A stretch of 24,000 nucleotides of DNA from Candidatus Saccharimonadota bacterium. GTDB lineage: Bacteria > Patescibacteriota > Saccharimonadia > Saccharimonadales > SZUA-47. The stretch lies in NCBI GenBank assembly GCA_020428465.1, contig JAGQMY010000047.1:1-24000 (forward strand). The letters run 5' to 3'. Every line of letters starts with the position of its first letter. The first letter of the stretch is position 1. This document shows positions 1,264 through 21,255 of the stretch, piece after piece. Under the pieces are notes generated by a model. That model did not search any database, was not told where the DNA came from, and saw nothing but the letters and a program-made list of their open reading frames with translations. The translations under genes were made by a program, and so were the position numbers.

Positions 1264-1348
1264 TAAAAAGCTAGCACACCCTTCATTAAAAAGGACTTAA
1301 AAAACACCAAAACTATATGAGGTCAACTTTCTGCTGTAAACTGTAAGT

Positions 1349-2413: not shown

Positions 2414-2417
2414 AAAT

Positions 2418-3970: not shown

Positions 3971-3989
3971 ATATTTACTCTCAGCTTCA

Positions 3990-5720
3990 TTAATATGCTC
4001 CACTCGGAACCGGCTTTACAAGATTTTCATTTAGAAGACTAACGACAGCGTCTGCGTGTTTGTCGAAATATTCAAAAGATTTATCGCTTGAAGCTTCGAC
4101 TAACAATGCCGGTGTACTAGTCTTGTAGTTATACCAGGCTTCGAAAAACCCAGGTCCACTATTCGGACTAGAGGGTTGATTAGTTATTTGAGAATACCGC
4201 AGTGCAAGACTACCGGATTCTGAGTTATTTGGTCCAGAAAAATATACTATATTTGTATTGCTGTGATAACTCAACACAAGACTAGCCTTACCTATACTTA
4301 GTAAAAAGCTTTGAATAGCTTGAGTTTCTGGCTCGCTTGCTGGGCTGGGGCCCTTACAATTGGGACCATCGGCGGGATTTTTTGTACAATCAGCTTGGTC
4401 CCATTTGTAGTCAAAGTTACGATTTAAGTTTACCCCGTTCTTATTAACTCTTCCGGGCGTGTTTTCGTCTGTCAAGCCCGCCCCATTTATTACTGGGATA
4501 GCAATGATTCGGACGTCGGGTGGAAGCTGTTTGTTGTACAAAAGTTCATGTGCTACTATTTGCCCTGCCTCTTCACCACCCGCGTGGATTGTGGCGCCAA
4601 CCACGACAGTCCTAATAGTTGTTTGGCCCGGACATGCATCTCTGATGTAAACGTTTATGTCTTGACCCGCACTATTCTTACCAATAGTCCCTGTTGGCTC
4701 GAGCTCAGACCAGTCAACTCCAACGCCTAGTCTAGTTAGGGTGTGTTGAGTACCTTCACAAGGGATTGCTGAGCCAGTAACTTCGAGATTTCCAAAGCCA
4801 TTACCACTAGATCCAGAACCGCATGCTAAACTATCGCCAGCTAGCTCGACAATAGCATTTATAGTTTCGGTTACGTTATTAAAGTACACGGTATTGTTCT
4901 CTACCCCAGAATACTTAGAAACATATCGTAGTAGATCACCGTTTGCAAATTCGTAGGACAATGAATTTTTAACTGCATCAAACCAACTATATTCACCGTT
5001 TAAACTATTTTCCCAGCTCGACCACTGGTAGACGGACCAAATCTTGTCAGCGCTTGATTGATAGTAGTATACAGTAGGCTGTCCTTTGCCCGCTGTAACA
5101 CCGAATGCATTGTATGAAGAAACTTTTTGTGTGGTGTCCTGTGGACTGGATGATGCCGCCTCACTAGTGGCATAGGTGTTCCATGCCCAACTATCGTTGG
5201 GTCCGGCGACTAGCATGCTGTTTTCTTGTTTCAGCTGAGCAACTGCAAGCATAGGGTTTATCCCACTAGCTGCTCCACCATCTACAAAAGCTTGTCCTAG
5301 GCCCTGAAAAGGTGACGTTTTACTTCCTACGTAGTCGTCTATGTATTGATTGATTGCGGAAGCAAAGCCACCGATACTGTTTATCGTAGGTAAATCTATG
5401 CCTAAGCAACTACTCGAGCCGGATACTCCCGAAGTCTGATTGGGCGTATATGGGTTGAAATAATACGCACCTTGTTTAATGAGCGACTTCACGCAACTAC
5501 TATAGCTTTGTGCATTTACGCGCTCGCAGTAACTATTAATTACTCCGTCTTGTGCTTGACTTATACTTCCGAAAATCATAATAAAACTTACCAGGAGTAA
5601 AAAATAAATATGTAATTTTCGCACAAACAAATAAGCATTGACATAAGACAAAGATGCAAAACTCGACGACACGGTAGTCTCTTCCGCTACCATTGCTCTT
5701 AATCTGGACAAGATAATCAT
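3990..5720 (-). CDS. Secreted or membrane-anchored bifunctional peptidoglycan hydrolase candidate: GH73/FlgJ-type glucosaminidase-like N-domain plus M14 zinc carboxypeptidase-like C-domain
   Basis: 576 aa. Hydrophobic signal/anchor HIYFLLLVSFIMIFGSISQAQ. GINPMLAVAQLKQENS...YNAFGV (about nt 5221-5265) resembles the AQAALESGWG...NNLFGIK pattern of glucosaminidase domains. IHAGGEEAG (His near nt 4584), GVNLNRNFDYKW (nt 4414-4432) and LSYHSNT (nt ~4261-4275) match the M14 HxxE / NRNF / distal-His layout. The start is supported by an ATGA overlap and GGAG 9 nt upstream. Confidence 0.6.
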   Translation of the reverse strand: MIILSRLRAMVAEETTVSSSFASLSYVNAYLFVRKLHIYFLLLVSFIMIFGSISQAQDGVINSYCERVNAQSYSSCVKSLIKQGAYYFNPYTPNQTSGVSGSSSCLGIDLPTINSIGGFASAINQYIDDYVGSKTSPFQGLGQAFVDGGAASGINPMLAVAQLKQENSMLVAGPNDSWAWNTYATSEAASSSPQDTTQKVSSYNAFGVTAGKGQPTVYYYQSSADKIWSVYQWSSWENSLNGEYSWFDAVKNSLSYEFANGDLLRYVSKYSGVENNTVYFNNVTETINAIVELAGDSLACGSGSSGNGFGNLEVTGSAIPCEGTQHTLTRLGVGVDWSELEPTGTIGKNSAGQDINVYIRDACPGQTTIRTVVVGATIHAGGEEAGQIVAHELLYNKQLPPDVRIIAIPVINGAGLTDENTPGRVNKNGVNLNRNFDYKWDQADCTKNPADGPNCKGPSPASEPETQAIQSFLLSIGKASLVLSYHSNTNIVYFSGPNNSESGSLALRYSQITNQPSSPNSGPGFFEAWYNYKTSTPALLVEASSDKSFEYFDKHADAVVSLLNENLVKPVPSGAY

Positions 5721-6349
5721 TGGCTAGCTCCAAAAAGTACGTCAATAATATTTTGAGGTACCCCCAAGTTTACTAGAGACTCCGTGTCAAAGTAACTTCC
5801 GGAAAACAAAATGTCCCAACTGTTATTTCTTAGCCTAGCCAATACTACCTCGCCCTCAACACCTGGACGCGAGCTAAATAATCTACCGGTTGCCCATTCA
5901 TTTTCAATAATTTTGACATTTTTTAAACGATAGCCACCACTAAGTGTGATGACTGAATTTTTTGAGCTTAAAACATCAACCAAATCAGATTCTGTCGATG
6001 TTTTTTTATTAGTAAAGGCAACAGTGCTTTCTACCACTGCATCTTTGTATGTTGTTATGTTTAAGTTTATATCATCAAAATCGGCACTCCTTAAAGTATA
6101 GCTTGCATTACCCAGCGGCAGTCCAACCGCTGCTCCACTTACCGAAATTGATGAGATTAATTGTTCATTACTATCTAATAAATTAATAGGAGAAGCATTC
6201 TCGGGTGTGTAATATAGCCTAAAGTACCCTAAGTTTACATTTGTATCATTACCATTGTTTTTATCATGTTTAACGGAACTCAAATACGAGAATGCAACAA
6301 CAAGCAAAATCGCCACTAACGGCACTATCAATAACTTAATCGTTCGCAT
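5717..6349 (-). CDS. Hypothetical bitopic membrane protein (VirB8-like role possible, unproven)
   Basis: The track ORF starts at 6385, overlapping the upstream gene by 34 nt. The ATG at 6349 gives MRTIKLLIVPLVAILLVVAFSYL, has AGGAG ~10 nt upstream and lies 2 nt after the upstream TAA. Single N-terminal TM plus ~180-aa ectodomain, with no catalytic motif. Confidence 0.6.
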   Translation of the reverse strand: MRTIKLLIVPLVAILLVVAFSYLSSVKHDKNNGNDTNVNLGYFRLYYTPENASPINLLDSNEQLISSISVSGAAVGLPLGNASYTLRSADFDDINLNITTYKDAVVESTVAFTNKKTSTESDLVDVLSSKNSVITLSGGYRLKNVKIIENEWATGRLFSSRPGVEGEVVLARLRNNSWDILFSGSYFDTESLVNLGVPQNIIDVLFGASQ

Positions 6350-6351
6350 GG

Positions 6352-9300
6352 TTACGGCACTCCTGGACCTATGTATCGAGACCAACCACCAGGGTAATCC
6401 GACAGATTACTACTAGTAAACCTAACCGGCTTTCCCCAGGTATTAGTTTCGTAAACTATAATATTGCCACTGGCGTCGGGACTTGAAGCTGCAATGGCAA
6501 CATGTCCACCGGCTGGATTTGACTCGTCGCTATTACATCCAAAACTAATTGTCAAAAAATCTCCGGGGATTATCTCATTTTGATTAACGTGCTCGAATAA
6601 ATCTGGTCTTTGTTGAGATGTCCAGTTCCCTGAGCATCCGACACCTTGATAGTTATATGCTTTAAAAAGCGCAACAGAAGCAAGACCGCTACATTCAAGT
6701 AAGTTATTGGGGCTCAATCCTTCGCTTCTACTTTGTAACCATGATTGTGGTGCTCCGCCATAATTTGAAGATGATGCTGTAAATCCATAAATTTGATTTG
6801 CCGCCACCCCGGAATAGGTGCCATATCCGTTGCCATAGAATGTACCGTCAAACTCCATCGCTGTACATAAAATTCTTTCTGTGTCTGTAACCCCAGATAG
6901 ACATTTTTGTTTAATTTTTAAACAATTATCTTTAATATCCTGACTGTAACTTCTAATGTTAAAGTTATCGGGTGAAAGAACTTCAGTGTATCCATCGCAA
7001 TTTACAATTCTGCCTCCCGCTGTCGAGCTACCTGAGGGTAACGCTATATTATCTAGAAGGTACTGAACCTTTTTTATGTATCCGTCTATTGTGTGATGTA
7101 CGCTATCAGCAAACTCTACATCATCACCGGTGTCCGGTGTAGTTTTTGCATTCTTTACGTATCCATTCCAATCTAGCAATATGATATTTTGACTATCTTG
7201 AAATTGAGAAATTACATCCTCAATTATTGCATTCCTGTCTTCTAGGTTTGAATTGTTATCGGATGACACCAAATTAACGACATAAACGAAAGAATTAGGT
7301 GAAATTTGTTTAATTTGTTTTATCAATTCTGCAAATTTTTCTCTAAAAAGATTCTGGTCAACGTTGCCGCTTGCGTCTACTTCAAGCCTGTTAGTGCCAA
7401 GTCCAACAACAAATGTCCCGGTTTGATTACTCTGTATAATCTGAGTATCGTTTGATAGTGCAGTAATGCCATCAACAATTGTTTCGGAAGGACAGGTTGA
7501 ACCATCACCCGTAATAGGCCCCTGAGTCTGAAATACTGCACGACATCCTTGTGCATTTACTGTGCTTTGCCATCCATGCCCATCAAAAGTTCTTGCAAGA
7601 TAGTTTTTTTCCGGATCGCTACCAGCTAAAGTTTGCATACCCTTAGTTAAAGAGTCTCCCAAAAAATAGATTTGGTTATTAACTGGCGCATCTTCTGGAG
7701 CAGTAAACTCAGACGTCTGAAGCCCAATTTCCGAACAAGATGAATCGTCTCCTTCGCCACATCCTAAACCTAATTCTGTAACTCTATCTGCTAGGTATAA
7801 TCTATAGCGAAGCTGGTCGTCTGTTTTATTGTTGCAATCGGATGAAGTTACGTCATATCTTTCTCTGTCATTATCCACTACGTTAAGTGTTACAGGATCT
7901 ATCTTTTTAGGGAAACATGACCCAAACCTATCATCGAAAGACTGAATATCCGACTCAACAACGTTGGCATTTTCTAATGGATCATCGGCTATCTGACTAT
8001 TTTGTTCAGTTAATGTAAATCCATATTTAGGAAAACCATAGTCAAAGGTATAGTCAGCGGCACTGGCTTTTGTGGTCAAAAAATTAAGTGAATTAAGAGG
8101 GTTTTGAAGTACCAAGCCACCAAATCCCTTCAAATTCATTGGCGTGCTCATTGAAACCCGAGCAACCAAAGAGTCAACATTACTTATGTCAAAATATCTC
8201 TCATAAAGACTTTTTGATTTGTTGTCTAGGGCAATTGTTTGCATCTGGTCTGCGACTAAGGCCTGTTCGTCGCTTTCAGACATTTCTGAACCACCAAAAG
8301 CAAATGATGCCATGTTTGAGGCTATCCTAGCTCCATACATAAGATAATTTCCAAGTTCAGCCCCGACTGCGTATAGATTAATACCTGAACCCGCCAATAT
8401 GTCAACTAACTTTCCTGCAAGCTGATCAGGTGAGAGACCCAAAGGACCGAGAATTGCATTTAGCCCCGCCTGTGATGCTTCGCCTATTTGCTTAAGAACT
8501 GGAAGTCCACCGATAAAATCCTGAACACTACAAATTGTTCCTAATAGCGGAATGTCATCTATTGCCCTGAAAAAGGCTGGCTTCTCGCCTAACTTGCCTG
8601 GCTTTAACTCACTATCTAAATCGGGTCCAGAATCTACACCATTTAGTGATTTTTGAAACGGCTGAGCCATAATTGCATCGGAATTGTTAAGCACATCAAA
8701 TAAATCTTGAGAATAGACCCCAATCTCATCGCTGCTGACATCTTCTCCTGACATTATTTGTGCCCCAAGGGACATGTATGAAGTTGCAACTCTAGCCATG
8801 GGTAAAATTACGTTGGTGTACTGTAAAATTTCCGCTGCATTTCCAAGAGCCTTGACTCCGCATAAAAGAGCAGCGGCTGCTGCTGCGCTTCCGGCGATTC
8901 TACCCGCCACCTTTAGTTTGGCGGCTGCCTTATCGGATATAAAGCTTGGTTTAAGACGATTTTTTTCAGCGGTTTGTGCTACTTCTTCAGCGATATCGTT
9001 TGCTTCGCCAGCAGCAATACTTTCTGGCGTGGTGTCCGGTGTAGTATCAATGTTCCCGTCCCCGTTTGTATCGGTGCCGGTTTTTGGTAGATTAACATCC
9101 GTACTACCATTTGCTACTCTCGCAGCTCTATCTTCTTTGAACTTTAACGCCCACTCAACGAACCTATCGGTCGCCGCTCTTCTCACACTTTGTAACGGAT
9201 GAAGGATATGAAAATCCATCCCGCCATATTTTATTAACAAACGACTTGCTAACTTATCTGGGACACCTTCTATTTCAGCGCCTGCAGTTACAACACGCGC

Positions 9301-10146
9301 CAATGACCTTCGTTTACTTAGCTTTTCGTCGGATACATCTATTATTCTTGAGCCTTGACCCACTCTGTTATTGGAACCATCAAAACTATCTCTTGCTAAC
9401 GATCCGTTTGTGTTATAGCCTTCAGCCTCCAACTTTTTAAGCAAAGGATCAGCTTTTGCAGGATCAACGACCTCATATCCAATAAATCGACGTGTAATTG
9501 GTGAGTAAACAGATTTCAAGCCCGTATTCTTTAGAACGGCCTGGTCCCACTTAACTGCATACCTGCTAGCTATTCTGCCTAATCTTAGATTTTGTACAGA
9601 GTGGGTTTTCAATACTTTATATAAGCTCCAGGTTCTGCCATCCATAAACTCAGAGTTACTTTGAAAGTGAAACCTTTGAAGTAAATTTGCGAAGTGGAGC
9701 ACCTTAAAAGGAGCAAAAGATGCAAATAGTAGGTAAAAAGTAACCACTACGCCACCCAAGCCAACTCCACCTGCAATTGATTTTTTTCTATTTCTCAGTA
9801 TGCCATTTACCAGTTTTGCTGCCGGGTTGGTCCCTTGATTATCTAGCGAAAGGTTGTTAGAAAAAGACTTATCTGGTGTCAGCTTTGATTCAGCATCAGA
9901 ACGCCCAGCATCGTTATTTCCCGATAATGGGTTAATATCCATTTCTTCTACTCCGATGTTTTGACCGGGGCTTTTATTGGGGCTTACTGGTTCGTCGCCA
10001 GATTCATCACTCCAGCCATCGGGATTCCAGAATCCATCAGCGGAGGTGTTATCAGGATTCTGTCTGTTAGCGGGATTCAAAGAATCATCATTATTGTCGG
10101 GTGCGAATCCTTCTTCCTCGCGCTTTTTTAGTGAACCTGGCTGCAT
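6352..10146 (-). CDS. Large membrane-anchored multidomain cell-wall hydrolase (VirB1-analogue candidate): disordered N-terminus, TM, ~650-aa unknown region, SGNH/GDSL esterase, C-terminal NlpC/P60 cysteine peptidase
   Basis: 1264 aa. TM segment GGVGLGGVVVTFYLLFASFAPF. SGNH blocks IYFLGDSLTKG (GDS codons at nt 7651-7659), VVGLGTN and DSVHHT (nt ~7094-7108). NlpC/P60 hallmarks are LLECSGLASVAL (Cys codon 6691-6693), PGDFL and GGHVAIA (His codon 6502-6504). Located immediately downstream of virB4. Confidence 0.75.
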   Translation of the reverse strand: MQPGSLKKREEEGFAPDNNDDSLNPANRQNPDNTSADGFWNPDGWSDESGDEPVSPNKSPGQNIGVEEMDINPLSGNNDAGRSDAESKLTPDKSFSNNLSLDNQGTNPAAKLVNGILRNRKKSIAGGVGLGGVVVTFYLLFASFAPFKVLHFANLLQRFHFQSNSEFMDGRTWSLYKVLKTHSVQNLRLGRIASRYAVKWDQAVLKNTGLKSVYSPITRRFIGYEVVDPAKADPLLKKLEAEGYNTNGSLARDSFDGSNNRVGQGSRIIDVSDEKLSKRRSLARVVTAGAEIEGVPDKLASRLLIKYGGMDFHILHPLQSVRRAATDRFVEWALKFKEDRAARVANGSTDVNLPKTGTDTNGDGNIDTTPDTTPESIAAGEANDIAEEVAQTAEKNRLKPSFISDKAAAKLKVAGRIAGSAAAAAALLCGVKALGNAAEILQYTNVILPMARVATSYMSLGAQIMSGEDVSSDEIGVYSQDLFDVLNNSDAIMAQPFQKSLNGVDSGPDLDSELKPGKLGEKPAFFRAIDDIPLLGTICSVQDFIGGLPVLKQIGEASQAGLNAILGPLGLSPDQLAGKLVDILAGSGINLYAVGAELGNYLMYGARIASNMASFAFGGSEMSESDEQALVADQMQTIALDNKSKSLYERYFDISNVDSLVARVSMSTPMNLKGFGGLVLQNPLNSLNFLTTKASAADYTFDYGFPKYGFTLTEQNSQIADDPLENANVVESDIQSFDDRFGSCFPKKIDPVTLNVVDNDRERYDVTSSDCNNKTDDQLRYRLYLADRVTELGLGCGEGDDSSCSEIGLQTSEFTAPEDAPVNNQIYFLGDSLTKGMQTLAGSDPEKNYLARTFDGHGWQSTVNAQGCRAVFQTQGPITGDGSTCPSETIVDGITALSNDTQIIQSNQTGTFVVGLGTNRLEVDASGNVDQNLFREKFAELIKQIKQISPNSFVYVVNLVSSDNNSNLEDRNAIIEDVISQFQDSQNIILLDWNGYVKNAKTTPDTGDDVEFADSVHHTIDGYIKKVQYLLDNIALPSGSSTAGGRIVNCDGYTEVLSPDNFNIRSYSQDIKDNCLKIKQKCLSGVTDTERILCTAMEFDGTFYGNGYGTYSGVAANQIYGFTASSSNYGGAPQSWLQSRSEGLSPNNLLECSGLASVALFKAYNYQGVGCSGNWTSQQRPDLFEHVNQNEIIPGDFLTISFGCNSDESNPAGGHVAIAASSPDASGNIIVYETNTWGKPVRFTSSNLSDYPGGWSRYIGPGVP

Positions 10147-10158
10147 TTAAACCCCAAA

Positions 10159-12063
10159 TTATTGCTTTAACTCTACGGTATTATTATACCCCGTTTGGTT
10201 GAGGTCTACTTGCTCGGTTTTGACTGGTGGTCTTTTTTCATTTGGGTTAGTTGTTATCAGGTTTGTTTCAGTTGGACTTGCCACAATCTGCATGTGCACA
10301 TGGTTAGATCCGGCGAAGAATAATCCTTGACCAACCGGGAATTGACTAAGGCGTTTTTTCTCTTCACTGGTTAACTTGAAGGTTTGCGCCAGGACATCAA
10401 CAGCAGACGTTGATTGCTTTAACAGAATCTGCATACTTGCATTAGCTACGATTGCTCGTCCCATTCGAGACCCCATAAAGTCCTCGACATCCTGGGTAAT
10501 TGTCGTAATGCCCAGATTATATTTACGAGCTCGTTTGGCTAAACTGAATAAGAAACTAGCGCTATCTTCATATTTCATTAACTGCCACGCCTCATCAACA
10601 ATCAAAATTCTTCGTTTCTGGTCGACTTTAGTCTTATTCCAGATGAAATTCAGCACGATATACATTGCTACCGGGCGAAGCTCATCTTCTAGATCACGAA
10701 TATTAAACACGACCAGAGGGTTGTTAATCTCAATGTTACTAGGTTGGCTAAAAATACCCGCGAACGTTCCGGTTGTATATTTTCGCAACCTTTGAGCTAG
10801 TTGCGGCCCAGAACCTCCAGAGTGCAAAAGTGTATCATACAAACTTGCGATAGTTGGTGCAGGAGAATTATGAGTAAGCGGGTCATTAGTTATGCCAGCT
10901 TTGGCGTATGTTTCTATTAATGCAGCATCAAGATCAGCTTCCTCTTCGGGAGTTAGTGATGGTCGAACTACATCTGATCCTGAAGCCAGAGCTGCGGCTC
11001 CACCCATCATGAGACGCAGTAACCCATGCAATGTGATTAAGTTACTGCGGAGTGCGTTATCGGCCTCTTCAGGGTCAGATACCTTAGGCAAATCGAACGG
11101 ATTTATTCTGGTTTTGCTGTTTAGGCTCAAGCGAACATATGCACCACCGACAGCATCACACATTTTGGCGTATTCATTCTCGGGATCGATAATGAATACC
11201 TCGGTACCGAACATCATACTTCGAAGAGCCTCTAGCTTAACTGTAAAGCTTTTTCCTGCGCCTGATTTGGCAAAGACAACACTGTTACCGTTCTCGAGTG
11301 AGAATCTATCAAAGATAACAAGTCCAGAGTTATGCATGTTTATTCCGTATAAAATACCATTTTCTTGGCTCAAATCAGCACTTGTGAAGGGAAAAGTTGT
11401 ACTTACAGCTCCCGTATTCATGTTGCGTCGAATTTGAAGTTGGTCAGTAAACTGCGGGATTGTTGAGTTGAGTCCTTGCTCTTGTTGGGCTCCTGCTGGT
11501 TTACTATAGACCAGCTGTTGCGCCAAAACGCTCTCAACCTTATGAGATACATACTCCATTTCTTCGGCATCGTTTGCATATATTGTAAAATAAAGACCAA
11601 ATCTAAAGAAGCGCTCTTCTCCAACCTGAAGCTTGTCCCTCAACTCCTCGGCATCGACTATAGCTGCTTGTTTGCCAGGATCGCGCACTTTACCCTTTTC
11701 AGCATCGATTTGCAGACCGGCTTCAAGTTGACCAACTTTCTTACGTAAGTTTTCCAGAACTACTTGGCTTTCAACAGGATATATAAACATCGACATATCT
11801 ATAACTTCATCAAGGTTTATCATACTGCTTAACCAGCCGGTATAAAGTCTACGAGGATAGCCATATACGTAGTACGTTCTTGCTATACGTGTACCGATTT
11901 TGAACTGACTCGATTCGAACTCTAAACTTGCAGGTGCAATGAAATCTCTAAGAGCTGTTACGCCCTTTTCGAATGCAACTTGAACCTCTTGTTGTTCGCG
12001 CAAAGCCTGTGCTTGTGCCTGCGCAACTGGATCGGTTGCTGGTTTTTTGTTAAAAATTCCCAC
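10159..12063 (-). CDS. virB4: T4SS ATPase, VirB4/TrbE/PrgJ family
   Basis: 634 aa. Walker A FAKSGAGKSF (nt ~11248-11268) and Walker B ILIVDEAWQL (nt ~10585-10608). N-domain pattern DFIAP..LEF......IG.R.ART..V.GYPR....GWL is typical of monoderm VirB4 proteins. GTG start with GGGAG 8 nt upstream, overlapping the upstream TAG by 1 nt (TAGTG). Confidence 0.9.
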   Translation of the reverse strand: MGIFNKKPATDPVAQAQAQALREQQEVQVAFEKGVTALRDFIAPASLEFESSQFKIGTRIARTYYVYGYPRRLYTGWLSSMINLDEVIDMSMFIYPVESQVVLENLRKKVGQLEAGLQIDAEKGKVRDPGKQAAIVDAEELRDKLQVGEERFFRFGLYFTIYANDAEEMEYVSHKVESVLAQQLVYSKPAGAQQEQGLNSTIPQFTDQLQIRRNMNTGAVSTTFPFTSADLSQENGILYGINMHNSGLVIFDRFSLENGNSVVFAKSGAGKSFTVKLEALRSMMFGTEVFIIDPENEYAKMCDAVGGAYVRLSLNSKTRINPFDLPKVSDPEEADNALRSNLITLHGLLRLMMGGAAALASGSDVVRPSLTPEEEADLDAALIETYAKAGITNDPLTHNSPAPTIASLYDTLLHSGGSGPQLAQRLRKYTTGTFAGIFSQPSNIEINNPLVVFNIRDLEDELRPVAMYIVLNFIWNKTKVDQKRRILIVDEAWQLMKYEDSASFLFSLAKRARKYNLGITTITQDVEDFMGSRMGRAIVANASMQILLKQSTSAVDVLAQTFKLTSEEKKRLSQFPVGQGLFFAGSNHVHMQIVASPTETNLITTNPNEKRPPVKTEQVDLNQTGYNNTVELKQ

Positions 12064-12869
12064 TATTGTAGCTCCCTCTCAAGTTGTGGCTGAGCAGCGT
12101 GGCCTACGCCCTTTTCAATAACCGGTGCATTCATATCTTCAAAATTCTTGAGCGGCTGACGTGTAGCCGTATCTGGATTGTAGGCATCATAGTAAAGCTC
12201 GATTAATTCCTGGGTATCAAGTGGGATAGAGGCTACGCCAGACTGCTGTAGTCCAGCCATAACGGCTTGGATGCGATTTTTTAACTCTGTTTTTGCTTGC
12301 TCTAGCACCGCTTCGTTGATTACTACTTGTGTATCTTTTTTACCAAATACAGCGGTAAAAAAGTTTTTACTAGCTTTTATGGCTTTCTGCGTGTCCAGTT
12401 GCGGGAAAAAAGGTATAACAACGTAAAATCTCTTATCCATTATGTTGGTCTGCAATGCTAAATTCTCGATAAAGTCTAAGTAGTCGTCCATCAGGAGTGC
12501 GAGCAACATATTATCATGCTCAGAACGAATTTTATCTAGCTTTTCTATATACGGTCGTAGATCGACTTTTTGACTACGGACAAAAATCTGAATCGGAAAG
12601 TATAACGAATTTAGAAAACCTTGGTAGCTGAACTCGACAGCTTCACGCTCCTGGGGGCTCATTAGGTCGAAATTGATACTTTGACAAGCTAAAACAGCTC
12701 GAAAGCTGCCGTCGTTCATTATCACGATACCATCTCGAATCTCGGCAATTTCAAGAGAATTCTGAGTGCTGTTCGGATTCGACTTTACCATAGGTTGAGC
12801 TACAGGTTGACCAGGTACTCCGGGCATGGTCTGCTGAATATTCGGCTGTATCGCTTGGTTTGGATTCAT
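12063..12869 (-). CDS. Soluble T4SS-associated protein of unknown function (reminiscent of a VirB4 N-terminal, non-ATPase domain)
   Basis: 268 aa with no TM and no Walker motif. The Pro/Gln-rich first 40 aa are followed by EIRDGIVIMNDGSFRAVLACQSINFDLMSPQEREAVEFSYQGFLNSLYFPIQIFV, a pattern I associate with N-domains of some Gram-positive VirB4/TraE-type ATPases. AGGTGG SD. Coupled to virB4. Confidence 0.55.
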   Translation of the reverse strand: MNPNQAIQPNIQQTMPGVPGQPVAQPMVKSNPNSTQNSLEIAEIRDGIVIMNDGSFRAVLACQSINFDLMSPQEREAVEFSYQGFLNSLYFPIQIFVRSQKVDLRPYIEKLDKIRSEHDNMLLALLMDDYLDFIENLALQTNIMDKRFYVVIPFFPQLDTQKAIKASKNFFTAVFGKKDTQVVINEAVLEQAKTELKNRIQAVMAGLQQSGVASIPLDTQELIELYYDAYNPDTATRQPLKNFEDMNAPVIEKGVGHAAQPQLERELQ

Positions 12870-12887: not shown

Positions 12888-14054
12888 TTAGTGTAATTGA
12901 ATAACAACTTCATCTTCATCTGGCTTGTCTCTATCTACCTGCCTAGCTAGAGTGTCCACCGTTAAGTCGTCGTTGCCTGCTAAGTTTAGTATAGCAGGAT
13001 TAACGGGGTGAGTGCTAGGAGTTTGTGTTGTTTGTGGTTGGGATACGGAAGGCTGATTTCCAGATGGATTTTGACCCAAAGGCTGAATGGTTTTCAATCG
13101 ACTATTTGAACTAAACTGAGCATCAAGTTGTTGTTGTTTGTGAACTTTTTGGAGCAAATTTTGCTCATCAGTTGAAGTTATACCAGTATTTGGCTGTATT
13201 GACGGTACTGGCTGGCTTAGCGGAGTTTGTTTTGCAGGAGCTACTAATAAAGGTGGCGTTTTAAAGCTAGCAACAGTAGGATCGGCTTTATTATTCTGGT
13301 TAAGAAACCATAAATCATCGGCGGTCGTTTGATTATTGCTGTTACTTTTTGGTTGAGGAAGTGGCATAGGGTAATTTTGTTGTTGAGTTGCTGGTCCTTG
13401 CTCGGACATCCTTCTCGCCTCTTCAATCATTCCAAGAGTGTCACGGCGGTGTTTCGTATTTGACTGTTCAATCATATTGTCAAATTGACGCGCAAGCGGA
13501 TTGGATGCCTCGTCCATAACATCAACAGTGTTATCTACTAAAACCGTTTTTTCATCTTGTACGTCTGTTGGCAAAGAAACTAACCTATCACTCGTGTCGA
13601 GGTTGCTACGAGTGGATAAACTTGAAAGATTTTTTACTGCCCAGCCCCTACTATCTACAACTGACGCTAGCGCATTAAACCGACTTCTTACTTCGTCAGG
13701 ACTTAGCCCATCAGTTAAATTGTGGTGCTCACGTTTTGGTACGGTTATCTTCACGAGCTCTTTCATCCCGGCTTGATCCCATATGCGTTTTCGCCTTATG
13801 AACATGAACCTAATGTGTGCTGCAAGCCAGAGCTCAGACGGTTGGTCTTTAGTCCAGGGAAATGCCAGGATACCTAATGCTATTGCTGGTAAGCCAAAAA
13901 GCGGAGACAAAAATGCAGCTCCTTTTGAGATGGTGATAAAAGTTAACCAACCGAACATTGCCGTCCCACCAAAGAATAGAAACTGCCGAAATGTTAGGGG
14001 GCCTAAAAACTTATCTTCTGCCTCAACATCTTGAGGTACCTTATACACAGCCAT
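12888..14054 (-). CDS. PrgI-family (VirB3-like) T4SS membrane protein with ~280-aa low-complexity C-terminal extension
   Basis: 388 aa. The N-terminus MAVYKVPQDVEAEDKFLGPLTFRQFLFFGG plus two TM helices (AMFGWLTFITI.., LFGLPAIALGILAF) matches the PrgI-family signature (KVP.D...EDK....LT.RQ). It sits two genes upstream of virB4. The remainder is rich in Q/P/N/S/T. Confidence 0.65.
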   Translation of the reverse strand: MAVYKVPQDVEAEDKFLGPLTFRQFLFFGGTAMFGWLTFITISKGAAFLSPLFGLPAIALGILAFPWTKDQPSELWLAAHIRFMFIRRKRIWDQAGMKELVKITVPKREHHNLTDGLSPDEVRSRFNALASVVDSRGWAVKNLSSLSTRSNLDTSDRLVSLPTDVQDEKTVLVDNTVDVMDEASNPLARQFDNMIEQSNTKHRRDTLGMIEEARRMSEQGPATQQQNYPMPLPQPKSNSNNQTTADDLWFLNQNNKADPTVASFKTPPLLVAPAKQTPLSQPVPSIQPNTGITSTDEQNLLQKVHKQQQLDAQFSSNSRLKTIQPLGQNPSGNQPSVSQPQTTQTPSTHPVNPAILNLAGNDDLTVDTLARQVDRDKPDEDEVVIQLH

Positions 14055-16053: not shown

Positions 16054-18690
16054 TTATGACGGATTCCAAGGTGTTGCGGTACCCCCTCCATCATCTTCGT
16101 CATCGGGAGTTGCATCGCCTGCAGCTGCTTGAGCAGGATCGGCAAAGTTAGTGTTTTGACCAGCTAATGTTGCTTGACTTGTTGTGGGATCGCTTGGGAT
16201 TGGCGATGGGGCTACGGGGGTTGGAGGGGATTCTAGTGGCGAATCTGGGTTAAATGCACCACTGTTTTCTTCCTCTGTAACGGCTCTGTCTGCTCGCCTG
16301 GCCCTTCTGTCTTGTCTATATTTTCTTGCTTTTTCTCTTGCACCCCTTACTGTTGGGTGCCAGCCTCGAGCTACTTGCACCGCAGCATTATACGTTTTCA
16401 AATCTCTTACATAGGCTTCTTGTTGCCTTGTGTACTCCTCTTTCTCGGCCGCACCAGCATCATCTCTAGGAGGCGTTGGAGCTTCAGGTTTTTTTGGCAT
16501 TCCCTGCTTAAGCAGAGTTAGCCCGCCACGACCCACCCTAAAATCTGCCCAGTGCAAAGCTCTGTTGCTATGCGACTCTAGTCGGGCATCACGCATACTT
16601 GCACGGGTGTGATTAACTTGATGTCGTCTGCTGGATTGATCATACTCGCTTCCCATGAATTTCTCGTATCGCTTCTTGTTAAAGCCAGTTATAGCACCTG
16701 ATATTGACGATATTGCGCCCCCAGCGAGCTTAAAGGCAAACGGTATTAAGAAAAACGGTATAAAGAGCACTACCAAAGCTACAAACTGATTTATTGTATA
16801 CGAGCCCCCATCACCAGCTGCACTGAACATCATCATTGATAGAAGATCGGCTATAGCAAAAATAGCCATTATTATCGGATAAACCATAAGTGTTTTGATA
16901 AACAAATCAAACCATTTTTTAGCGTACTTTTCCGTACCGGGAATAGCATATAAAGCTAGCGCTATTGGAGATATGACCGCTAAAAGAATAACTAAACCAC
17001 GACGAATAACTATAGTTCCAAAAATAGCAATAGTAGTTAAAAGCATGGGTATTAAGAACGAGTAAAGTAATAATGTGAAGAAGCCACCGGTTGTGAAGAA
17101 GCCGAGGAGAAACTTGCCGCCCAGATACGTAGCAAAAAGTCCCCCAAGACTGAGTAGTTGATTTGGCTTGAATGAGAAACTCCCAGCCCCACCTAACGGA
17201 GCAGTTATAAGTTGGCCAATACCCCTACCTAACACATTAAACACATCTACCGATAGTGCAACAATGAAATACGATATATTTATAAGAATTGCTGCAATTA
17301 AAATTCTTGGCATTGCCTTTTTAGCCGTGTAAGCATCAACCAGTCCACCACCTATAGCTTGACCGAATACGATTACTAGCAGTGCGATGACGAGTATTAT
17401 ATTGCCTAATGTCCTGAATCCTCTCCACACCTGGTATGCTGTGTCATTTGACTCGGTGGTTAAGGGGCTAGTGACGAGGAAAGGTTCTATAATCGAGTGA
17501 AACATCCAGTCTATGCCATCAAGTGCGCCGTTGACAATGGGACAAAAAAGAAAGGCTAACGAGAACCCAGAACTCTCGCAAGTCGGGGTGTCTTCACCGG
17601 TTTCGAGATTAAAGGAACCTGCTTGTTCCTCACCAGTGCCTGCTTCTTTATTGGCATTTTCGTTATCTAATAGCGGATAGCTCACTCCTGTAATTGGCGG
17701 AACACGATAGTAGTCATGAGATTGAAACGTACCAGCTTTATCTACATCTTCTCTGACATCAACAACCTGACAATCAGAAATATTTATTGCGCTTATACCC
17801 CATTCTGAAGCTGGTTTTTGTGAACCGTAAGCGTCTCCGTCACTAAGTGAACCATTTGCAACTAATATGTAGTATTTCATCGTAGCAGGATTGGTTGATT
17901 TATCGACGATTATTACATCATCACATGGACCCACCTCGTCTGCTCTAAAGACATTAGGTTCGCTTGAGTCTTGAACAAAGGGAGTAGGAATATTTTTTAT
18001 GGAAGTTGCATGATCGCTCTCGACTATTCTAATTGTCAAATCTACTGCTGGTTCAATCTTTGCACTATCTACCCAGCGAAAATAAGCAGTACTGAATTGG
18101 GTGTTTTTAACCGATATGCTACCAGTATTATCAACCTTATTTCCGTCACTGTCTATGTGGGTATTTAAATCACCGGAGTCTTTGCACTCTGTTCCATCAG
18201 AATTGTAGAAATCGATATCGGTTTTAACCTTGGTAAGTGGTGTGTTGTCTAAAAAATTATCTTGATTGGTTATACTATCGGCAATGAATGTAATCTTATT
18301 ATAACAAGACGAAGGCCAGCCCTGTATCTCATAATCTGTACTTTGTCTGTGGTTACCATCAGTAAGGCTCGTTCTCTGGGCGATAACACCTTTGGCATCA
18401 CCATGGCCGTCTTTCGGTACTACGTCATAACTAATTCCTGGTTTTGTTTTAAAAGTTAGTTTAGCAAGACCGGCATTTACCCAAGTAAATTCAAATATAT
18501 CGGCCGGATTGCCAATAATCCTTCCCTTACTGTCTGTGGTTAAACCGTACGTTTCAGGTACAGCTACTCCATTTTCCGCGGCCTTAGCTGTCTGAAATAG
18601 CCCGTTCACAATGAAAGAGTTAAGAATAAATATAATGAATATTAAAAATATAAATATTCTCTTTTGTTTTTTTACGATAGGAAAAACCAT
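16054..18690 (-). CDS. TrbL/VirB6-like polytopic T4SS channel protein with large N-terminal ectodomain and ~200-aa charged C-terminal tail
   Basis: 878 aa. Signal/anchor IFIFLIFIIFILNSFIVNGLFQTAKA, then a ~340-aa ectodomain. At least 6 hydrophobic helices follow, including the ISPIALALYAIPGTEKYAKKW..L...M.YP block typical of TrbL/VirB6. The tail (nt 16054-16680) is rich in R/E/P. Confidence 0.7.
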   Translation of the reverse strand: MVFPIVKKQKRIFIFLIFIIFILNSFIVNGLFQTAKAAENGVAVPETYGLTTDSKGRIIGNPADIFEFTWVNAGLAKLTFKTKPGISYDVVPKDGHGDAKGVIAQRTSLTDGNHRQSTDYEIQGWPSSCYNKITFIADSITNQDNFLDNTPLTKVKTDIDFYNSDGTECKDSGDLNTHIDSDGNKVDNTGSISVKNTQFSTAYFRWVDSAKIEPAVDLTIRIVESDHATSIKNIPTPFVQDSSEPNVFRADEVGPCDDVIIVDKSTNPATMKYYILVANGSLSDGDAYGSQKPASEWGISAINISDCQVVDVREDVDKAGTFQSHDYYRVPPITGVSYPLLDNENANKEAGTGEEQAGSFNLETGEDTPTCESSGFSLAFLFCPIVNGALDGIDWMFHSIIEPFLVTSPLTTESNDTAYQVWRGFRTLGNIILVIALLVIVFGQAIGGGLVDAYTAKKAMPRILIAAILINISYFIVALSVDVFNVLGRGIGQLITAPLGGAGSFSFKPNQLLSLGGLFATYLGGKFLLGFFTTGGFFTLLLYSFLIPMLLTTIAIFGTIVIRRGLVILLAVISPIALALYAIPGTEKYAKKWFDLFIKTLMVYPIIMAIFAIADLLSMMMFSAAGDGGSYTINQFVALVVLFIPFFLIPFAFKLAGGAISSISGAITGFNKKRYEKFMGSEYDQSSRRHQVNHTRASMRDARLESHSNRALHWADFRVGRGGLTLLKQGMPKKPEAPTPPRDDAGAAEKEEYTRQQEAYVRDLKTYNAAVQVARGWHPTVRGAREKARKYRQDRRARRADRAVTEEENSGAFNPDSPLESPPTPVAPSPIPSDPTTSQATLAGQNTNFADPAQAAAGDATPDDEDDGGGTATPWNPS

Positions 18691-19984: not shown

Positions 19985-19987
19985 TTT

Positions 19988-20739: not shown

Positions 20740-20768
20740 TAGAATATGAAAAGGAGTATCAATCAATA

Positions 20769-21233: not shown

Positions 21234-21255
21234 GATTGCTATAGTAATCGTGTTA

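What the first reader, a model, noticed from the sequence alone, without database searches (positions are those of the whole stretch)
6352..10146. 1264-aa membrane-anchored protein combining an SGNH esterase and an NlpC/P60 endopeptidase behind a ~650-aa unknown region
Seen: the order is a disordered acidic/Pro-rich N-terminus, one clear TM, and a long region with Ala/Gly-rich amphipathic or hydrophobic stretches (GRIAGSAAAAAALLCGVKALGNAAEIL; GSGINLYAVGAELGNYLMYGARIASNMASFAFGG). These are followed by SGNH blocks (GDS at nt 7651-7659, GLGTN, DSVHH) and an NlpC/P60 domain (ECSG, PGDFL, GHVAIA). Established: monoderm T4SSs carry a VirB1-analogue cell-wall hydrolase next to VirB4, and several are bifunctional with a C-terminal NlpC/P60 or CHAP domain. 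SGNH domains in wall enzymes typically remove O-acetyl groups from peptidoglycan or act as lipases. Inference: an esterase-plus-endopeptidase combination would allow attack on O-acetylated, lysozyme-resistant walls. Those could be the cell's own wall or, in an epibiont, the host's. The central region could be a length-determining or membrane-inserting element, somewhat as in phage tape-measure proteins with C-terminal lysins. I do not recognise this domain order from characterised T4SS hydrolases.
Basis: partly seen in the sequence, partly recalled or inferred. Interest (0 to 1): 0.7.

Follow-up and report, generated by a model that had tools for sequence, protein, structure and literature searches.

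The report
Swappable wall-cutting protein of Saccharibacteria T4SS
This is a real 1264-residue membrane-anchored protein of the type IV secretion locus of a Saccharibacteria (TM7) epibiont, carrying an esterase and a cysteine peptidase for cutting bacterial cell wall behind a ~690-residue module of unknown fold; it matters because it belongs to an undescribed family whose wall-cutting ends are swapped even between near-identical strains.

Summary
The ORF (6352-10146, minus strand) is real and is found identically in three independent assemblies. It has an acidic tail, one strong TM helix, and an SGNH domain with all catalytic blocks intact. Its C-terminal domain gets no direct Pfam hit. An exhaustive profile search ties it to NlpC/P60, CHAP and Amidase_5, and the Cys, His and Glu are conserved.

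The gene sits directly after PrgI, TrsD and VirB4. That is the slot of PrgK in pCF10 and of the essential SEML1_0007 in Southlakia epibionticum. No sequence homology to PrgK is detectable.

New here: residues ~116-812 form a conserved, family-specific, mostly helical module with no Pfam, PDB, plasmid or phage match. Relatives carry different wall peptidases behind it: VanY/M15B, M14, M23-like, an unassigned type, or the NlpC/P60-like domain, with or without SGNH. Module similarities are discordant.

One relative has 98-99% identical DnaN and RecF and 97.8% identical VirB4. Against it, the stretch 2436-10001 (this gene plus four downstream genes) is almost unalignable.

Best reading: a VirB1-type wall-breaching subunit, probably also aimed at the host wall. 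The tape-measure or membrane-insertion idea remains untested. New variant of a known kind; interest moderate to high.

The parts
6352..10146 (-). Whole ORF, 1264 aa including stop (stop codon 6352-6354); P0001, named 'SGNH/GDSL hydrolase family protein [Candidatus Saccharibacteria bacterium]' at NCBI
9784..10146 (-). N-terminal tail, aa 1-121: acidic, Asn/Asp/Ser/Pro/Gly-rich, no Cys, ends in the basic stretch RNRKK just before the TM helix. Inferred to be cytoplasmic. The first ~48 codons are the only part of the gene that aligns at DNA level with the close relative L009
9709..9783 (-). Single strong transmembrane helix, aa ~122-146; present in every family member
7711..9708 (-). Conserved family-specific central module, aa ~147-812 (HMM match 120-812). 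Predicted mostly helical with one small alpha/beta unit. Contains an acidic linker at aa ~346-395 and ends in LRYRLYLAD...GCGEGDDSSC. No Pfam, NCBIfam, PHROGs, PDB, plasmid or phage match
8824..8916 (-). Conserved semi-hydrophobic Ala/Gly-rich helix, aa 411-441 (KD 1.4-1.8 across the family), containing the invariant Cys429
8290..8421 (-). Second Ala/Gly-rich hydrophobic stretch, aa 576-619, with the best-conserved motif of the module (AVGAELGNYxMYG). This is the region shared between the two divergent types of central module
7057..7683 (-). SGNH/GDSL hydrolase domain, aa 822-1030. Ser832 (block I), Gly867 (II), Gly917/Asn919 (III) and Asp1014/His1017 (V) are all present and conserved in relatives
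6355..7017 (-). Divergent NlpC/P60-CHAP-superfamily cysteine peptidase domain, aa 1044-1264. Predicted catalytic residues are Cys1152 (ECSG), His1215 (GH) and Glu1233 (YETN). An N-terminal subdomain carries four conserved Cys (1050, 1075, 1082, 1094)
10159..12063 (-). VirB4 ATPase, C-terminal part, CD1110 family, immediately upstream (12-nt gap)
12063..12869 (-). TrsD/TraC-like protein (VirB4 N-terminal part encoded separately)
12888..14054 (-). PrgI (VirB3-like) protein
16054..18690 (-). VirB6-like polytopic membrane protein (CD3337/EF1877 family; TrbL_3)
5717..6349 (-). 210-aa exported or anchored protein of unknown function. Its ATG lies 2 nt after the stop of the target, so the two are likely translationally coupled. 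Only 21% identical to its counterpart in the close relative
3990..5720 (-). Second wall enzyme of the locus: 576 aa with a C-terminal M14 (MpaA-like) carboxypeptidase. The same M14 module is fused to the scaffold protein in relative P0011
2436..10001 (.). Hypervariable cassette: five genes, namely the target minus its first ~48 codons, the 210-aa, M14, 336-aa and 192-aa genes. Flanks are 94% (dnaN-recF) and 84% (virB4) nt identical to L009; inside, only two patches of the M14 gene align

Best explanation
This is the membrane-anchored cell-wall-breaching subunit of the chromosomal, origin-proximal type IV secretion system of a Saccharibacteria epibiont. It is the positional counterpart of PrgK/VirB1 and of the essential SEML1_0007 of Southlakia epibionticum. 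Shown: an acidic N-terminal tail is followed by one TM helix. Behind it lie a ~690-aa conserved helical module, an SGNH hydrolase with a complete catalytic set, and a divergent NlpC/P60-type cysteine peptidase with Cys-His-Glu. Inferred: the tail is cytoplasmic, close to VirB4, and everything after residue ~147 is outside the membrane. The peptidase cuts peptidoglycan stem peptides. The SGNH domain most likely removes O-acetyl (or similar ester) groups from the glycan. Together with the adjacent M14 enzyme this opens the wall locally so that the T4SS channel and its VirB2-like pilus can pass. The enzymatic end is exchanged between relatives for M15B, M14, M23-like or unassigned modules. The whole extracellular part lies in a cassette that is unalignable between strains with 98-99% identical neighbouring proteins. 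For these reasons I think the wall being cut includes the wall of the host bacterium at the contact zone, and not only the cell's own wall. The central module would then serve as the family-specific scaffold or spacer that docks the enzymes to the machine and carries them outward.
For: Synteny: the order VirB6-like, unknown gene, PrgI, TrsD, VirB4, target is seen in the window and in five other Saccharibacteria contigs. pCF10 has PrgI, VirB4, PrgK in the same order. The counterpart SEML1_0007 (1113 aa, with only a C-terminal DD-peptidase domain) and the next hydrolase SEML1_0006 are scored essential by Tn-seq. They have been proposed as VirB1 substitutes. SGNH: the score is above the Pfam cutoff and all catalytic blocks are conserved. 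Cys peptidase: the profile finds 66 cluster representatives. Of the 63 scanned, 27 match NLPC_P60, 12 CHAP and 3 Amidase_5, and in the four checked individually the match lies over the same region. Cys is kept in 65/66, His in 65/66 and Glu in 48/58 rows. All 15 Cys lie after the TM helix. Exchangeable ends on a conserved module. Module similarities are discordant. VirB4 is 87-98% identical where the target's centre is 43-52% identical or not alignable. DNA breakpoints lie at ~2435 and ~10002.
Against: No enzymatic activity, topology or localisation has been measured. The target itself has no glycosidase domain, whereas in PrgK the muramidase is the active part. No homology to PrgK is detectable. 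The SGNH match is barely above threshold, and its nearest solved relatives are weak hits (E 1e-3 to 3e-2) that include the OatA acetyltransferase as well as esterases. Domain variety is also seen among T4SS hydrolases of conjugative elements that act on their own wall. Hypervariability could simply reflect surface exposure. I could not compare sequences with SEML1_0007, so orthology rests on position and architecture only. The protein is tethered by a TM helix, so reaching the host wall needs either a long extended module or proteolytic release, and neither is shown.
Confidence: 0.6

Rival explanations
1. Strictly self-directed VirB1-type assembly factor. The enzymes only open the epibiont's own peptidoglycan so that the T4SS and pilus can assemble. 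The variability of the C-terminal modules and of the cassette would then be a by-product of weak constraint and surface exposure (phage, host defences), not adaptation to host wall chemistry.
For: The gene occupies the same position as PrgK, which acts on the donor wall. The protein is TM-anchored in the producing cell. Characterised T4SS hydrolases already show several domain combinations. Other extracellular parts of the locus also diverge fast: PrgI is 43-46% and the VirB6-like protein 33% identical where VirB4 is 87-89%.
Against: Two relatives with 98-99% identical DnaN and RecF should have the same wall chemistry, yet they carry different peptidase classes (NlpC/P60-like versus VanY). Enzymes with different predicted bond specificities (M15B, M14, M23-like, Cys peptidase) replace one another on the same scaffold. 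That is not expected for one constant substrate.
Confidence: 0.3
2. The central module is a tape-measure-like or pore-forming element. Its conserved semi-hydrophobic Ala/Gly-rich helices insert into the host membrane after the enzymes have cut the host wall, forming or guiding the conduit, as proposed for phage tape-measure proteins with lysin domains.
For: A long, mostly helical module carries conserved moderately hydrophobic helices at aa 411-441 and ~530-620, which are more hydrophobic (KD up to 2.3) in the second type of the module. Wall hydrolases sit at the C-terminal end, as in some tape-measure proteins. The top-ranked BFVD matches of the model are tape-measure or minor tail proteins.
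Against: Those matches are not significant (E >= 0.028, TM <= 0.12, prob <= 0.13), and the model itself is poor (pLDDT 55, pTM 0.41). There is no sequence match in phage genomes or PHROGs. Invariant Cys429 and Cys539 sit in or near two of the hydrophobic helices, which would fit a disulfide-stapled soluble core at least as well (inference).
Confidence: 0.15
3. Feeding toolkit. The target and the neighbouring M14 enzyme mainly harvest muropeptides and amino acids from host peptidoglycan for an auxotrophic epibiont, and the link to the T4SS is only co-regulation.
For: Each locus carries several complementary wall enzymes (SGNH, Cys peptidase, MpaA-like M14, and glucosaminidase in relatives). By general knowledge Saccharibacteria lack amino-acid biosynthesis, as cited.
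Against: The position between VirB4 and the other T4SS-locus genes is strictly conserved in every contig examined. The TM anchor and the conserved N-terminal tail next to VirB4 argue for a machine-bound protein. No transporter is encoded in the cassette.
Confidence: 0.1
4. The SGNH domain is an O-acetyltransferase of the OatA/PatB type (or a lipase), not a de-O-acetylase. It would modify a wall, for example to protect the cell's own wall near the machine.
For: Profile hits to solved structures include the OatA C-terminal acetyltransferase domain (6wn9, E 0.012) at about the same level as CE2 esterases (E 0.0012) and a chain that I recall as Ape1 but which is labelled only 'GDSL-like Lipase/Acylhydrolase family protein' (4k3u, E 0.026).
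Against: Known OatA/PatB SGNH domains work with a membrane acyltransferase partner that supplies acetyl groups (general knowledge). No such domain is present in the protein or the cassette. All neighbouring modules are hydrolases.
Confidence: 0.12

Closest known systems
PrgK of pCF10 (and TraG of pIP501, Orf14 of Tn916, CwlT of ICEBs1): VirB1-like peptidoglycan hydrolases of monoderm T4SSs
   Same: Encoded directly after PrgI/VirB3 and VirB4. An N-terminal cytoplasmic tail and a single TM anchor are followed by several extracellular wall-enzyme domains, including a papain-like Cys peptidase of the CHAP/NlpC-P60 superfamily.
   Different: No detectable sequence homology to PrgK (hhalign probability ~0.1). 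No SLT, muramidase or LytM domain. An SGNH domain is present, which is not part of the described ALPHA-DELTA classes. A ~690-aa conserved module of unknown fold lies between the anchor and the enzymes. The locus is chromosomal, next to dnaN-recF (with dnaA beyond them in the related contigs), with no relaxase or coupling-protein gene within the 24-kb window.
SEML1_0007 of Southlakia epibionticum ML1 (Wang et al. 2023, PMC10633639)
   Same: A large protein (1113 aa) immediately downstream of virB4 in a Saccharibacteria T4SS locus. Only its C-terminal ~155 aa are annotated, as a Hedgehog/DD-peptidase fold. It is followed by a second multi-domain hydrolase and a ~210-aa exported protein. Tn-seq scores it essential. 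The architecture matches family members P0006, P0012 and P0014 (central module + VanY).
   Different: Its enzymatic end is an M15-type peptidase, not SGNH + NlpC/P60-like. I had no access to its sequence, so homology of its N-terminal 950 aa to the central module is inferred, not tested.
NlpC/P60 and CHAP peptidoglycan peptidases (Pfam clan Peptidase_CA), including the phage Amidase_5 endolysin Lys2972 (PDB 8tw1)
   Same: The (D/E)CSG motif carries the catalytic Cys, GH carries the His, and an acidic third residue follows 18 positions later. There is a weak direct hit to 8tw1 over Cys and His (E 0.16), a PHROG endolysin hit for homologue P0008 (E 0.0017), and a profile chain to NLPC_P60, CHAP and Amidase_5.
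   Different: Too divergent for any Pfam model. It carries an extra ~100-aa N-terminal subdomain with four conserved Cys. It occurs mainly at the C-terminus of Saccharibacteria T4SS-locus proteins, and also as ~300-aa lipoproteins of a high-GC organism.
Phage tape-measure proteins with lysin domains; polymorphic toxins/effectors with a conserved N-terminal part and variable C-terminal domains
   Same: A long helical region with Gly/Ala-rich hydrophobic stretches is followed by wall hydrolase(s). A conserved N-terminal module carries interchangeable C-terminal enzymatic modules, and a small, fast-evolving gene lies directly downstream.
   Different: No significant sequence or structural match to tape-measure proteins. 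Not in a phage tail module. No recognised toxin, immunity or trafficking domains. The downstream 210-aa protein is exported or anchored and of unknown function.

Membership tests
SGNH/GDSL hydrolase superfamily (Pfam PF13472 / PF00657) | HMM score at or above the curated gathering threshold | tested here: met
   PF13472 scores 33.5 bits (whole protein) and 34.4 bits (domain alone) against a cutoff of 32.9. PF00657 scores 26.3 and 31.5 bits against 23.6. Marginal but consistent; relatives score up to 41 bits.
SGNH/GDSL hydrolase superfamily (Pfam PF13472 / PF00657) | Four conserved blocks: GDS (Ser nucleophile), Gly (block II), GxN (block III), DxxH (block V) | tested here: met
   Ser832, Gly867, Gly917/Asn919 and Asp1014/His1017 are present. 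They are invariant or nearly so in 22 related domains.
SGNH/GDSL hydrolase superfamily (Pfam PF13472 / PF00657) | Specific activity as a peptidoglycan O-acetylesterase (Ape-type) | not testable with these tools
   Only weak profile hits to solved structures: CE2 esterase 4xvh E 0.0012, OatA-C 6wn9 E 0.012, 4k3u (recalled as Ape1) E 0.026. The substrate cannot be assigned.
NlpC/P60-CHAP superfamily of papain-like cysteine peptidases | Direct match to a curated family model (NLPC_P60, CHAP, Amidase_5) | tested here: not met
   No Pfam hit for aa 1041-1264 even at E<=10. No NCBIfam hit. No PHROGs hit for the query itself.
NlpC/P60-CHAP superfamily of papain-like cysteine peptidases | Homology through intermediate sequences (profile chain) covering the same region | tested here: met
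   The 4-sequence profile A5 finds 66 representatives at E<=1e-3 in 1.84 billion proteins. Of the 63 scanned, 27 match NLPC_P60, 12 CHAP and 3 Amidase_5. The Pfam matches overlap the profile match in the four hits checked individually, P0030, P0033, P0035 and P0043.
NlpC/P60-CHAP superfamily of papain-like cysteine peptidases | Catalytic Cys, His and a third polar residue in the canonical order | tested here: met
   Cys1152 lies in ECSG (the family has D/E-C-S-G), His1215 in GH, and Glu1233 follows. Conservation: Cys 65/66, His 65/66, Glu 48/58 aligned rows; P0010 has His at the third position.
NlpC/P60-CHAP superfamily of papain-like cysteine peptidases | Papain-like alpha+beta fold | tested here: inconclusive
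   AlphaFold2 with 3 sequences gave pLDDT 40. Only the secondary-structure order (helix at the Cys, then strands at His and Glu) is compatible.
VirB1-like peptidoglycan hydrolases of monoderm T4SSs (PrgK/TraG/Orf14/CwlT) | [quoted passage not shown] | tested here: met
   There is a 12-nt gap after VirB4. The same order is seen on five other contigs and in pCF10.
VirB1-like peptidoglycan hydrolases of monoderm T4SSs (PrgK/TraG/Orf14/CwlT) | N-terminal (cytoplasmic tail +) TM anchor with extracellular enzyme domains | tested here: met
   Hydropathy shows one strong TM helix at aa 122-146, preceded by RNRKK. The topology itself is inferred.
VirB1-like peptidoglycan hydrolases of monoderm T4SSs (PrgK/TraG/Orf14/CwlT) | A glycan-cleaving domain (SLT / muramidase) | tested here: not met
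   No such domain is found in the target. In relatives a glucosaminidase sits in the next hydrolase gene. None was detected in this window.
VirB1-like peptidoglycan hydrolases of monoderm T4SSs (PrgK/TraG/Orf14/CwlT) | Sequence homology to PrgK | tested here: not met
   hhalign of the Cys-domain profile and of the central-module alignment against PrgK gives probability ~0.1.
VirB1-like peptidoglycan hydrolases of monoderm T4SSs (PrgK/TraG/Orf14/CwlT) | Required for T4SS function | not testable with these tools
   Only indirect evidence: the positional counterpart SEML1_0007 is essential in Tn-seq.
Phage tape-measure proteins | Sequence or profile similarity to tape-measure families, and location in a tail module | tested here: not met
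   No PHROGs hit. No tblastn hit in 50,697 phage records. The gene lies in a T4SS locus.
Phage tape-measure proteins | Structural similarity | tested here: inconclusive
   The best BFVD hits are tape-measure proteins, but with E >= 0.028 and TM <= 0.12, and the model has pLDDT 55.
Polymorphic effector-like architecture | Conserved N-terminal module with alternative C-terminal enzymatic domains among relatives | tested here: met
   C-terminal modules seen: VanY in P0002, P0003, P0004, P0005, P0006, P0009, P0012 and P0014; M14 in P0011; M23-like in L002 (by eye); an unassigned type in P0013, P0015 and P0016; NlpC/P60-like in P0001, P0010 and about 26 others; with or without SGNH.
Polymorphic effector-like architecture | Cognate immunity gene directly downstream that co-varies with the C-terminal domain | tested here: inconclusive
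   A 210-aa exported protein follows 2 nt after the stop. It is only 21% identical to its counterpart in the close relative. It matches no known immunity family, and a similar-sized gene sits elsewhere in other loci.

The most novel reading that the evidence does not exclude
The cassette 2436-10001 is a host-specificity determinant of Saccharibacteria. In this reading a T4SS-docked protein has a conserved ~690-aa helical module that carries exchangeable wall-cutting 'warheads' across the gap to the host. The warheads would be matched by recombination to the peptidoglycan chemotype (and O-acetylation) of the host. The semi-hydrophobic helices would then take part in breaching or inserting into the host envelope, making this functionally a bacterial counterpart of a phage tape-measure/lysin device built onto a secretion system.
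Probability: 0.2. Interest if true: 0.85.

Novelty: new variant of a known kind. Interest (0 to 1): 0.58.

Why it matters
The T4SS of Saccharibacteria is the first T4SS shown to be essential for its bearer. What it does at the epibiont-host interface is unknown, and so is what sets host range in these bacteria. The large gene after virB4 is essential in the one strain tested, yet it has been left as a 'hypothetical protein' with only a C-terminal peptidase fold. This analysis defines it as a family. The family has one conserved, structurally unassigned module and interchangeable wall-enzyme modules, and it lies in a cassette that is replaced between strains whose neighbouring genes are nearly identical. 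That yields concrete, testable hypotheses in the now genetically tractable strains: catalytic point mutants, warhead or cassette swaps, and sacculus specificity. It also adds SGNH esterases and a new NlpC/P60-like subfamily to the repertoire of T4SS-associated wall enzymes.

Tried and rejected
1. Direct family assignment of the C-terminal domain failed. Pfam gave nothing at E<=10 and PHROGs gave nothing for the query itself. The 3-sequence profile against PDB returned only low-complexity noise.

2. AlphaFold2 of the C-terminal domain with 3 sequences gave pLDDT 40 and is unusable, so it was not fold-searched.

4. The central module found no match in 72,556 plasmids or 50,697 phage records by tblastn. 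Its profile found nothing in PDB.

5. Homology to PrgK was tested by hhalign and rejected.

6. The SGNH domain alone found nothing useful in PDB. A 10-sequence profile gave only weak, mixed hits, so I do not assign a substrate.

7. I guessed that the C-termini of P0013, P0015 and P0016 are LAS-type zinc peptidases from a G.A.D...D.C.H.H motif. A PDB profile search did not support this, so they are left unassigned.

8. I guessed a GH73-like domain in the N-terminal half of the 576-aa M14 protein. Pfam gave no hit at E<=10, so this is unverified.

9. The search for related loci with broad alignments failed for lack of conserved stretches. A narrow alignment found only two species-representative genomes, so the family census rests on the protein searches and gives lower bounds.

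10. An assembly chimera as the source of the domain combination is rejected, because the identical protein is present in three independent assemblies.

Full report

The minus-strand ORF 6352-10146 encodes 1264 aa.

The first 115 residues are acidic (pI 4.1), rich in Asn, Asp, Ser, Pro and Gly, and free of Cys. A basic RNRKK stretch precedes one strong hydrophobic helix at aa ~122-146 (Kyte-Doolittle 1.99). A second segment at 411-441 reaches 1.64, and two more stay below 1.4.

The start codon is supported in two ways. The N-terminus is shared with P0004 and P0005, and a GGGG lies 8 nt upstream.

The exact protein is on record at NCBI as 'SGNH/GDSL hydrolase family protein [Candidatus Saccharibacteria bacterium]'. 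It also occurs on independent JGI and Logan contigs. It is therefore a real gene and not a chimera.

**2. The two enzyme domains**

*SGNH domain.* Pfam PF13472 scores just above its gathering cutoff (33.5-34.4 against 32.9 bits), and PF00657 scores above its own. Ser832, Gly867, Gly917/Asn919 and Asp1014/His1017 are present. They are essentially invariant in 22 related domains.

A 10-sequence profile of this domain hits solved structures only weakly. The hits are a CE2 carbohydrate esterase (E 0.0012), PAF acetylhydrolase, the OatA C-terminal acetyltransferase domain (0.012) and 4k3u (0.026). I recall 4k3u as the Neisseria O-acetyl-peptidoglycan esterase Ape1, but the database labels it only 'GDSL-like Lipase/Acylhydrolase family protein'. 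The fold and catalytic machinery are therefore shown, while the substrate is inferred.

*C-terminal domain (aa 1044-1264).* This domain gets no Pfam hit at all. It has a weak phmmer hit to the endolysin Lys2972 that aligns the Cys and the His (E 0.16).

Word-based searching found only two close homologues. Both are ~300-aa proteins with N-terminal sequences that look like lipoprotein signals, and the one contig I could examine (P0008) has 73% GC. A third relative came from a family member, P0010.

It found 66 cluster representatives at E<=1e-3. Of the 63 hits scanned against Pfam, 27 match NLPC_P60, 12 match CHAP and 3 match Amidase_5. In the four hits I checked individually (P0030, P0033, P0035, P0043), those matches lie over the same residues as my profile.

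Cys1152 sits in a (D/E)CSG motif and His1215 in a GH motif. Each is kept in 65 of 66 aligned rows, and Glu1233 in 48 of 58.

The domain is, however, a divergent subfamily with an extra N-terminal subdomain carrying four conserved Cys. AlphaFold2 on three sequences failed (pLDDT 40), so the fold itself is not confirmed.

**3. Context**

The window is a chromosomal Saccharibacteria T4SS locus next to dnaN and recF. The gene order is as follows:
- seven VirB2-like pilin genes, transcribed divergently;
- a VirB6-like gene;
- a 600-aa gene of unknown function;
- PrgI (VirB3-like);
- a TrsD/TraC-like gene;
- VirB4;
- the target;
- a 210-aa exported protein;
- a 576-aa protein with an M14 (MpaA-like) carboxypeptidase;
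- two further genes of unknown function.

This core order, from PrgI through TrsD and VirB4 to the family member, followed by a further wall enzyme and then recF and dnaN, recurs on the other contigs that I fetched. Where those contigs extend upstream, a pilin array and large membrane-protein genes precede PrgI, although they carry no VirB6 annotation. This organisation matches published descriptions.

In pCF10 the order PrgI, VirB4, PrgK puts the multidomain hydrolase PrgK in the same slot.

In Southlakia epibionticum ML1 the gene after virB4 is SEML1_0007. It encodes 1113 aa, and only residues 951-1105 are annotated, as a DD-peptidase fold. The next gene, SEML1_0006, carries two lysozyme-like domains and a cysteine proteinase. 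Both are scored essential by Tn-seq. Both have been suggested to replace VirB1.

**4. The family, and what is new**

*A conserved central module.* Word-based searches with the whole protein and with an alignment of residues 116-815 recovered 15 relatives. Thirteen of them align along the whole central module, which ends sharply at LRYRFYLAD...C.EGD..C.

This module has no Pfam, NCBIfam or PHROGs family. It has no PDB relative by profile. It has no tblastn match in the plasmid or phage collections. It shows no similarity to PrgK.

AlphaFold2 with 14 sequences predicts mostly long helices, one small alpha/beta unit and an acidic disordered linker. Confidence is low (pLDDT 55, pTM 0.41). Foldseek finds nothing in PDB. 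In BFVD it finds only non-significant tape-measure proteins at the top of the list.

All members share the strong N-terminal TM helix. They also share one to four moderately hydrophobic Ala/Gly-rich helices in the middle of the module.

A second, strongly divergent type of the module occurs in P0004, P0005, P0018, P0019, P0020 and P0040. It shares only this hydrophobic core region with the first type.

*Exchangeable C-terminal enzymes.* What follows the module differs from protein to protein:
- VanY/M15B in P0002, P0003, P0004, P0005, P0006, P0009, P0012 and P0014;
- M14 in P0011;
- an M23-like sequence in L002, recognised by eye;
- an unassigned domain in P0013, P0015 and P0016;
- the NlpC/P60-like domain in the target, P0010 and about 26 further representatives;
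- each of these with or without an SGNH domain in front.

The target's full combination of long module, SGNH and Cys peptidase recurs in P0018, P0019, P0020 and P0040. SGNH and this Cys peptidase also occur together in 12 shorter proteins.

Modules also move between the two hydrolase genes of a locus. The window's separate M14 module is 38% identical to the M14 end fused to the scaffold in P0011. The target's SGNH domain is 34% identical to the N-terminal SGNH domain of the second hydrolase in that locus.

The best match for each module of the target comes from a different protein:

| Module | Best match | Identity |
|---|---|---|
| N-terminal tail and SGNH | P0004, P0005 | 59-61% |
| Central module | P0002, P0003, P0009 | 50-52% |
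| Cys peptidase | P0018, P0020 | 62-65% |

**5. Hypervariability**

The contig carrying P0005 (L009) comes from a close relative of the window's organism. Its DnaN is 98.9%, its RecF 98.3% and its VirB4 97.8% identical at the protein level.

At the DNA level, window 1-2435 aligns at 94% identity and 10002-12503 at 84%. Between 2436 and 10001, only two patches of the M14 gene align.

Across that cassette the comparison with L009 is as follows:
- The target keeps 63% identity over its first 86 residues.
- It keeps 37% identity over residues 576-1040.
- It has no BLAST-detectable similarity over residues ~90-575.
- It carries a different C-terminal enzyme class (NlpC/P60-like versus VanY).
- The 210-aa, 336-aa and 192-aa neighbours are 21%, 27% and 59% identical to their counterparts.

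Against three more distant loci, VirB4 stays at 87-90% identity while the central module drops to 43-50%.

The right-hand breakpoint lies inside the target's cytoplasmic tail. Everything predicted to be outside the membrane is therefore variable, while the part next to VirB4 is conserved.

**6. Mechanism**

*Shown.* The protein has the domain set, the catalytic residues, the anchor and the position in the T4SS locus described above.

*Inferred.* The topology is N-in. This follows from the basic residues before the TM helix, from all 15 Cys lying after it, and from the fact that wall enzymes must be outside. The Cys peptidase cuts stem peptides and the SGNH domain removes ester-linked acetyl groups. 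Together with the M14 enzyme they open the wall locally for the channel and the pilus.

I commit to a VirB1-type wall-breaching subunit as the core function.

I further judge it more likely than not that the host's wall is a substrate. Strains with near-identical housekeeping proteins should share one wall chemistry, yet they carry peptidases of different predicted bond specificity. Actinobacterial hosts, by contrast, differ widely in peptidoglycan type; that last point is general knowledge and was not tested here.

The strictly self-directed alternative is not excluded. Surface exposure alone could drive the divergence, and T4SS hydrolases of conjugative elements also vary in domain content.

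It has no significant support. The invariant Cys429 and Cys539 in those helices could equally mark a disulfide-stapled soluble core.

**7. Comparison with what is known, and novelty**

The protein works like PrgK, TraG, Orf14 and CwlT, and it sits where PrgK sits. It fails two membership features of that group: it has no glycan-cleaving domain, and it shows no detectable homology to PrgK.

It is most likely the same gene family as the essential but uncharacterised SEML1_0007. That link rests on position and architecture only, because I could not obtain that sequence.

I found no paper describing any of the following:
- the central module as a family;
- SGNH domains in T4SS hydrolases;
- the exchange of C-terminal enzymes;
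- the hypervariable cassette.

I rate the finding a new variant of a known kind. Interest is moderate to high (0.58). The enzyme assignment by itself is ordinary. The modular, hypervariable cassette inside an essential secretion locus gives a concrete handle on how Saccharibacteria breach walls and possibly on host specificity.

**8. Limits**

- Nothing here measures activity, topology or localisation.
- Both structure predictions were of low confidence.
- Family counts come from capped or clustered searches and are lower bounds.
- The M23-like call in L002 was made by eye.
- The hypervariability argument rests on one close pair of metagenomic contigs.

Noticed in passing
window 2436-10001 compared with L009: A five-gene cassette (192-aa, 336-aa, M14, 210-aa genes and the target minus ~48 codons) is almost unalignable with a relative whose flanking DnaN, RecF and VirB4 are 98-99% identical in protein. 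The breakpoints fall at the end of recF and inside the target's N-terminal tail.
   Followed up: yes
window 10002-12503 and 1-2435 compared with L009: VirB4 is 97.8% identical in protein but only 84% in DNA, whereas dnaN-recF is 94% identical in DNA. So virB4 has many more silent changes than the housekeeping flank. This suggests strong purifying selection on VirB4, or a different history for the T4SS block.
   Followed up: partly
window 18804-22267 (+): Seven consecutive paralogous VirB2-like pilin genes (PF18895; six are above the Pfam cutoff and the first, 18804-19538, scores 22.5 bits against 26.6), divergently transcribed from the T4SS operon. This matches the pilin arrays reported for Saccharibacteria.
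   Followed up: partly
window 12063-12869 and 10159-12063 (-): VirB4 is encoded in two pieces: a 268-aa TrsD/TraC-like N-terminal part whose stop overlaps the start of the 634-aa ATPase part. The same split is seen in all related loci.
   Followed up: partly
window 3990-5720 (-): A 576-aa protein has a C-terminal M14 (MpaA-like) carboxypeptidase. That module is 38% identical to the M14 end fused to the scaffold protein in P0011. Its N-terminal ~300 aa have no Pfam hit. A GH73-like motif (AQLKQENS...YNAFGV) seen by eye is unverified.
   Followed up: partly
window 5717-6349 (-): A 210-aa exported or anchored protein starts 2 nt after the target's stop codon, with a GGAG inside the target's last codons. 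It is only 21% identical to its counterpart in the close relative. It could be an accessory or immunity-like partner, but no family matches it.
   Followed up: partly
P0007, P0008, P0021; L006: The closest full-length relatives of the C-terminal Cys-peptidase domain outside the T4SS proteins are ~300-aa proteins (47-53% identical; P0007 and P0008 have lipoprotein-like signal sequences). The one contig examined, that of P0008, has 73% GC, against 41% for this window. This suggests transfer of the domain between very different bacteria.
   Followed up: partly
window 14190-15992 (-): A 600-aa ORF between the VirB6-like gene and PrgI has no family in Pfam, NCBIfam or PHROGs. It is 31% identical to a 781-aa protein at the same position in L003.
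   Followed up: no
window 166-2413 (+) and 23055-23723 (+): dnaN and recF flank the T4SS locus on one side, so the locus is origin-proximal, as published for Patescibacteria. A ComF-like phosphoribosyltransferase lies beyond the pilin array.
   Followed up: no
L002 7803-10541: The family member in this 49.5%-GC Saccharibacteria MAG ends in a sequence with M23/LytM-like motifs (DIHAP.GTPV ... SHVHLDV). This would add another peptidase class to the exchangeable C-terminal modules. It was seen by eye only.
   Followed up: partly
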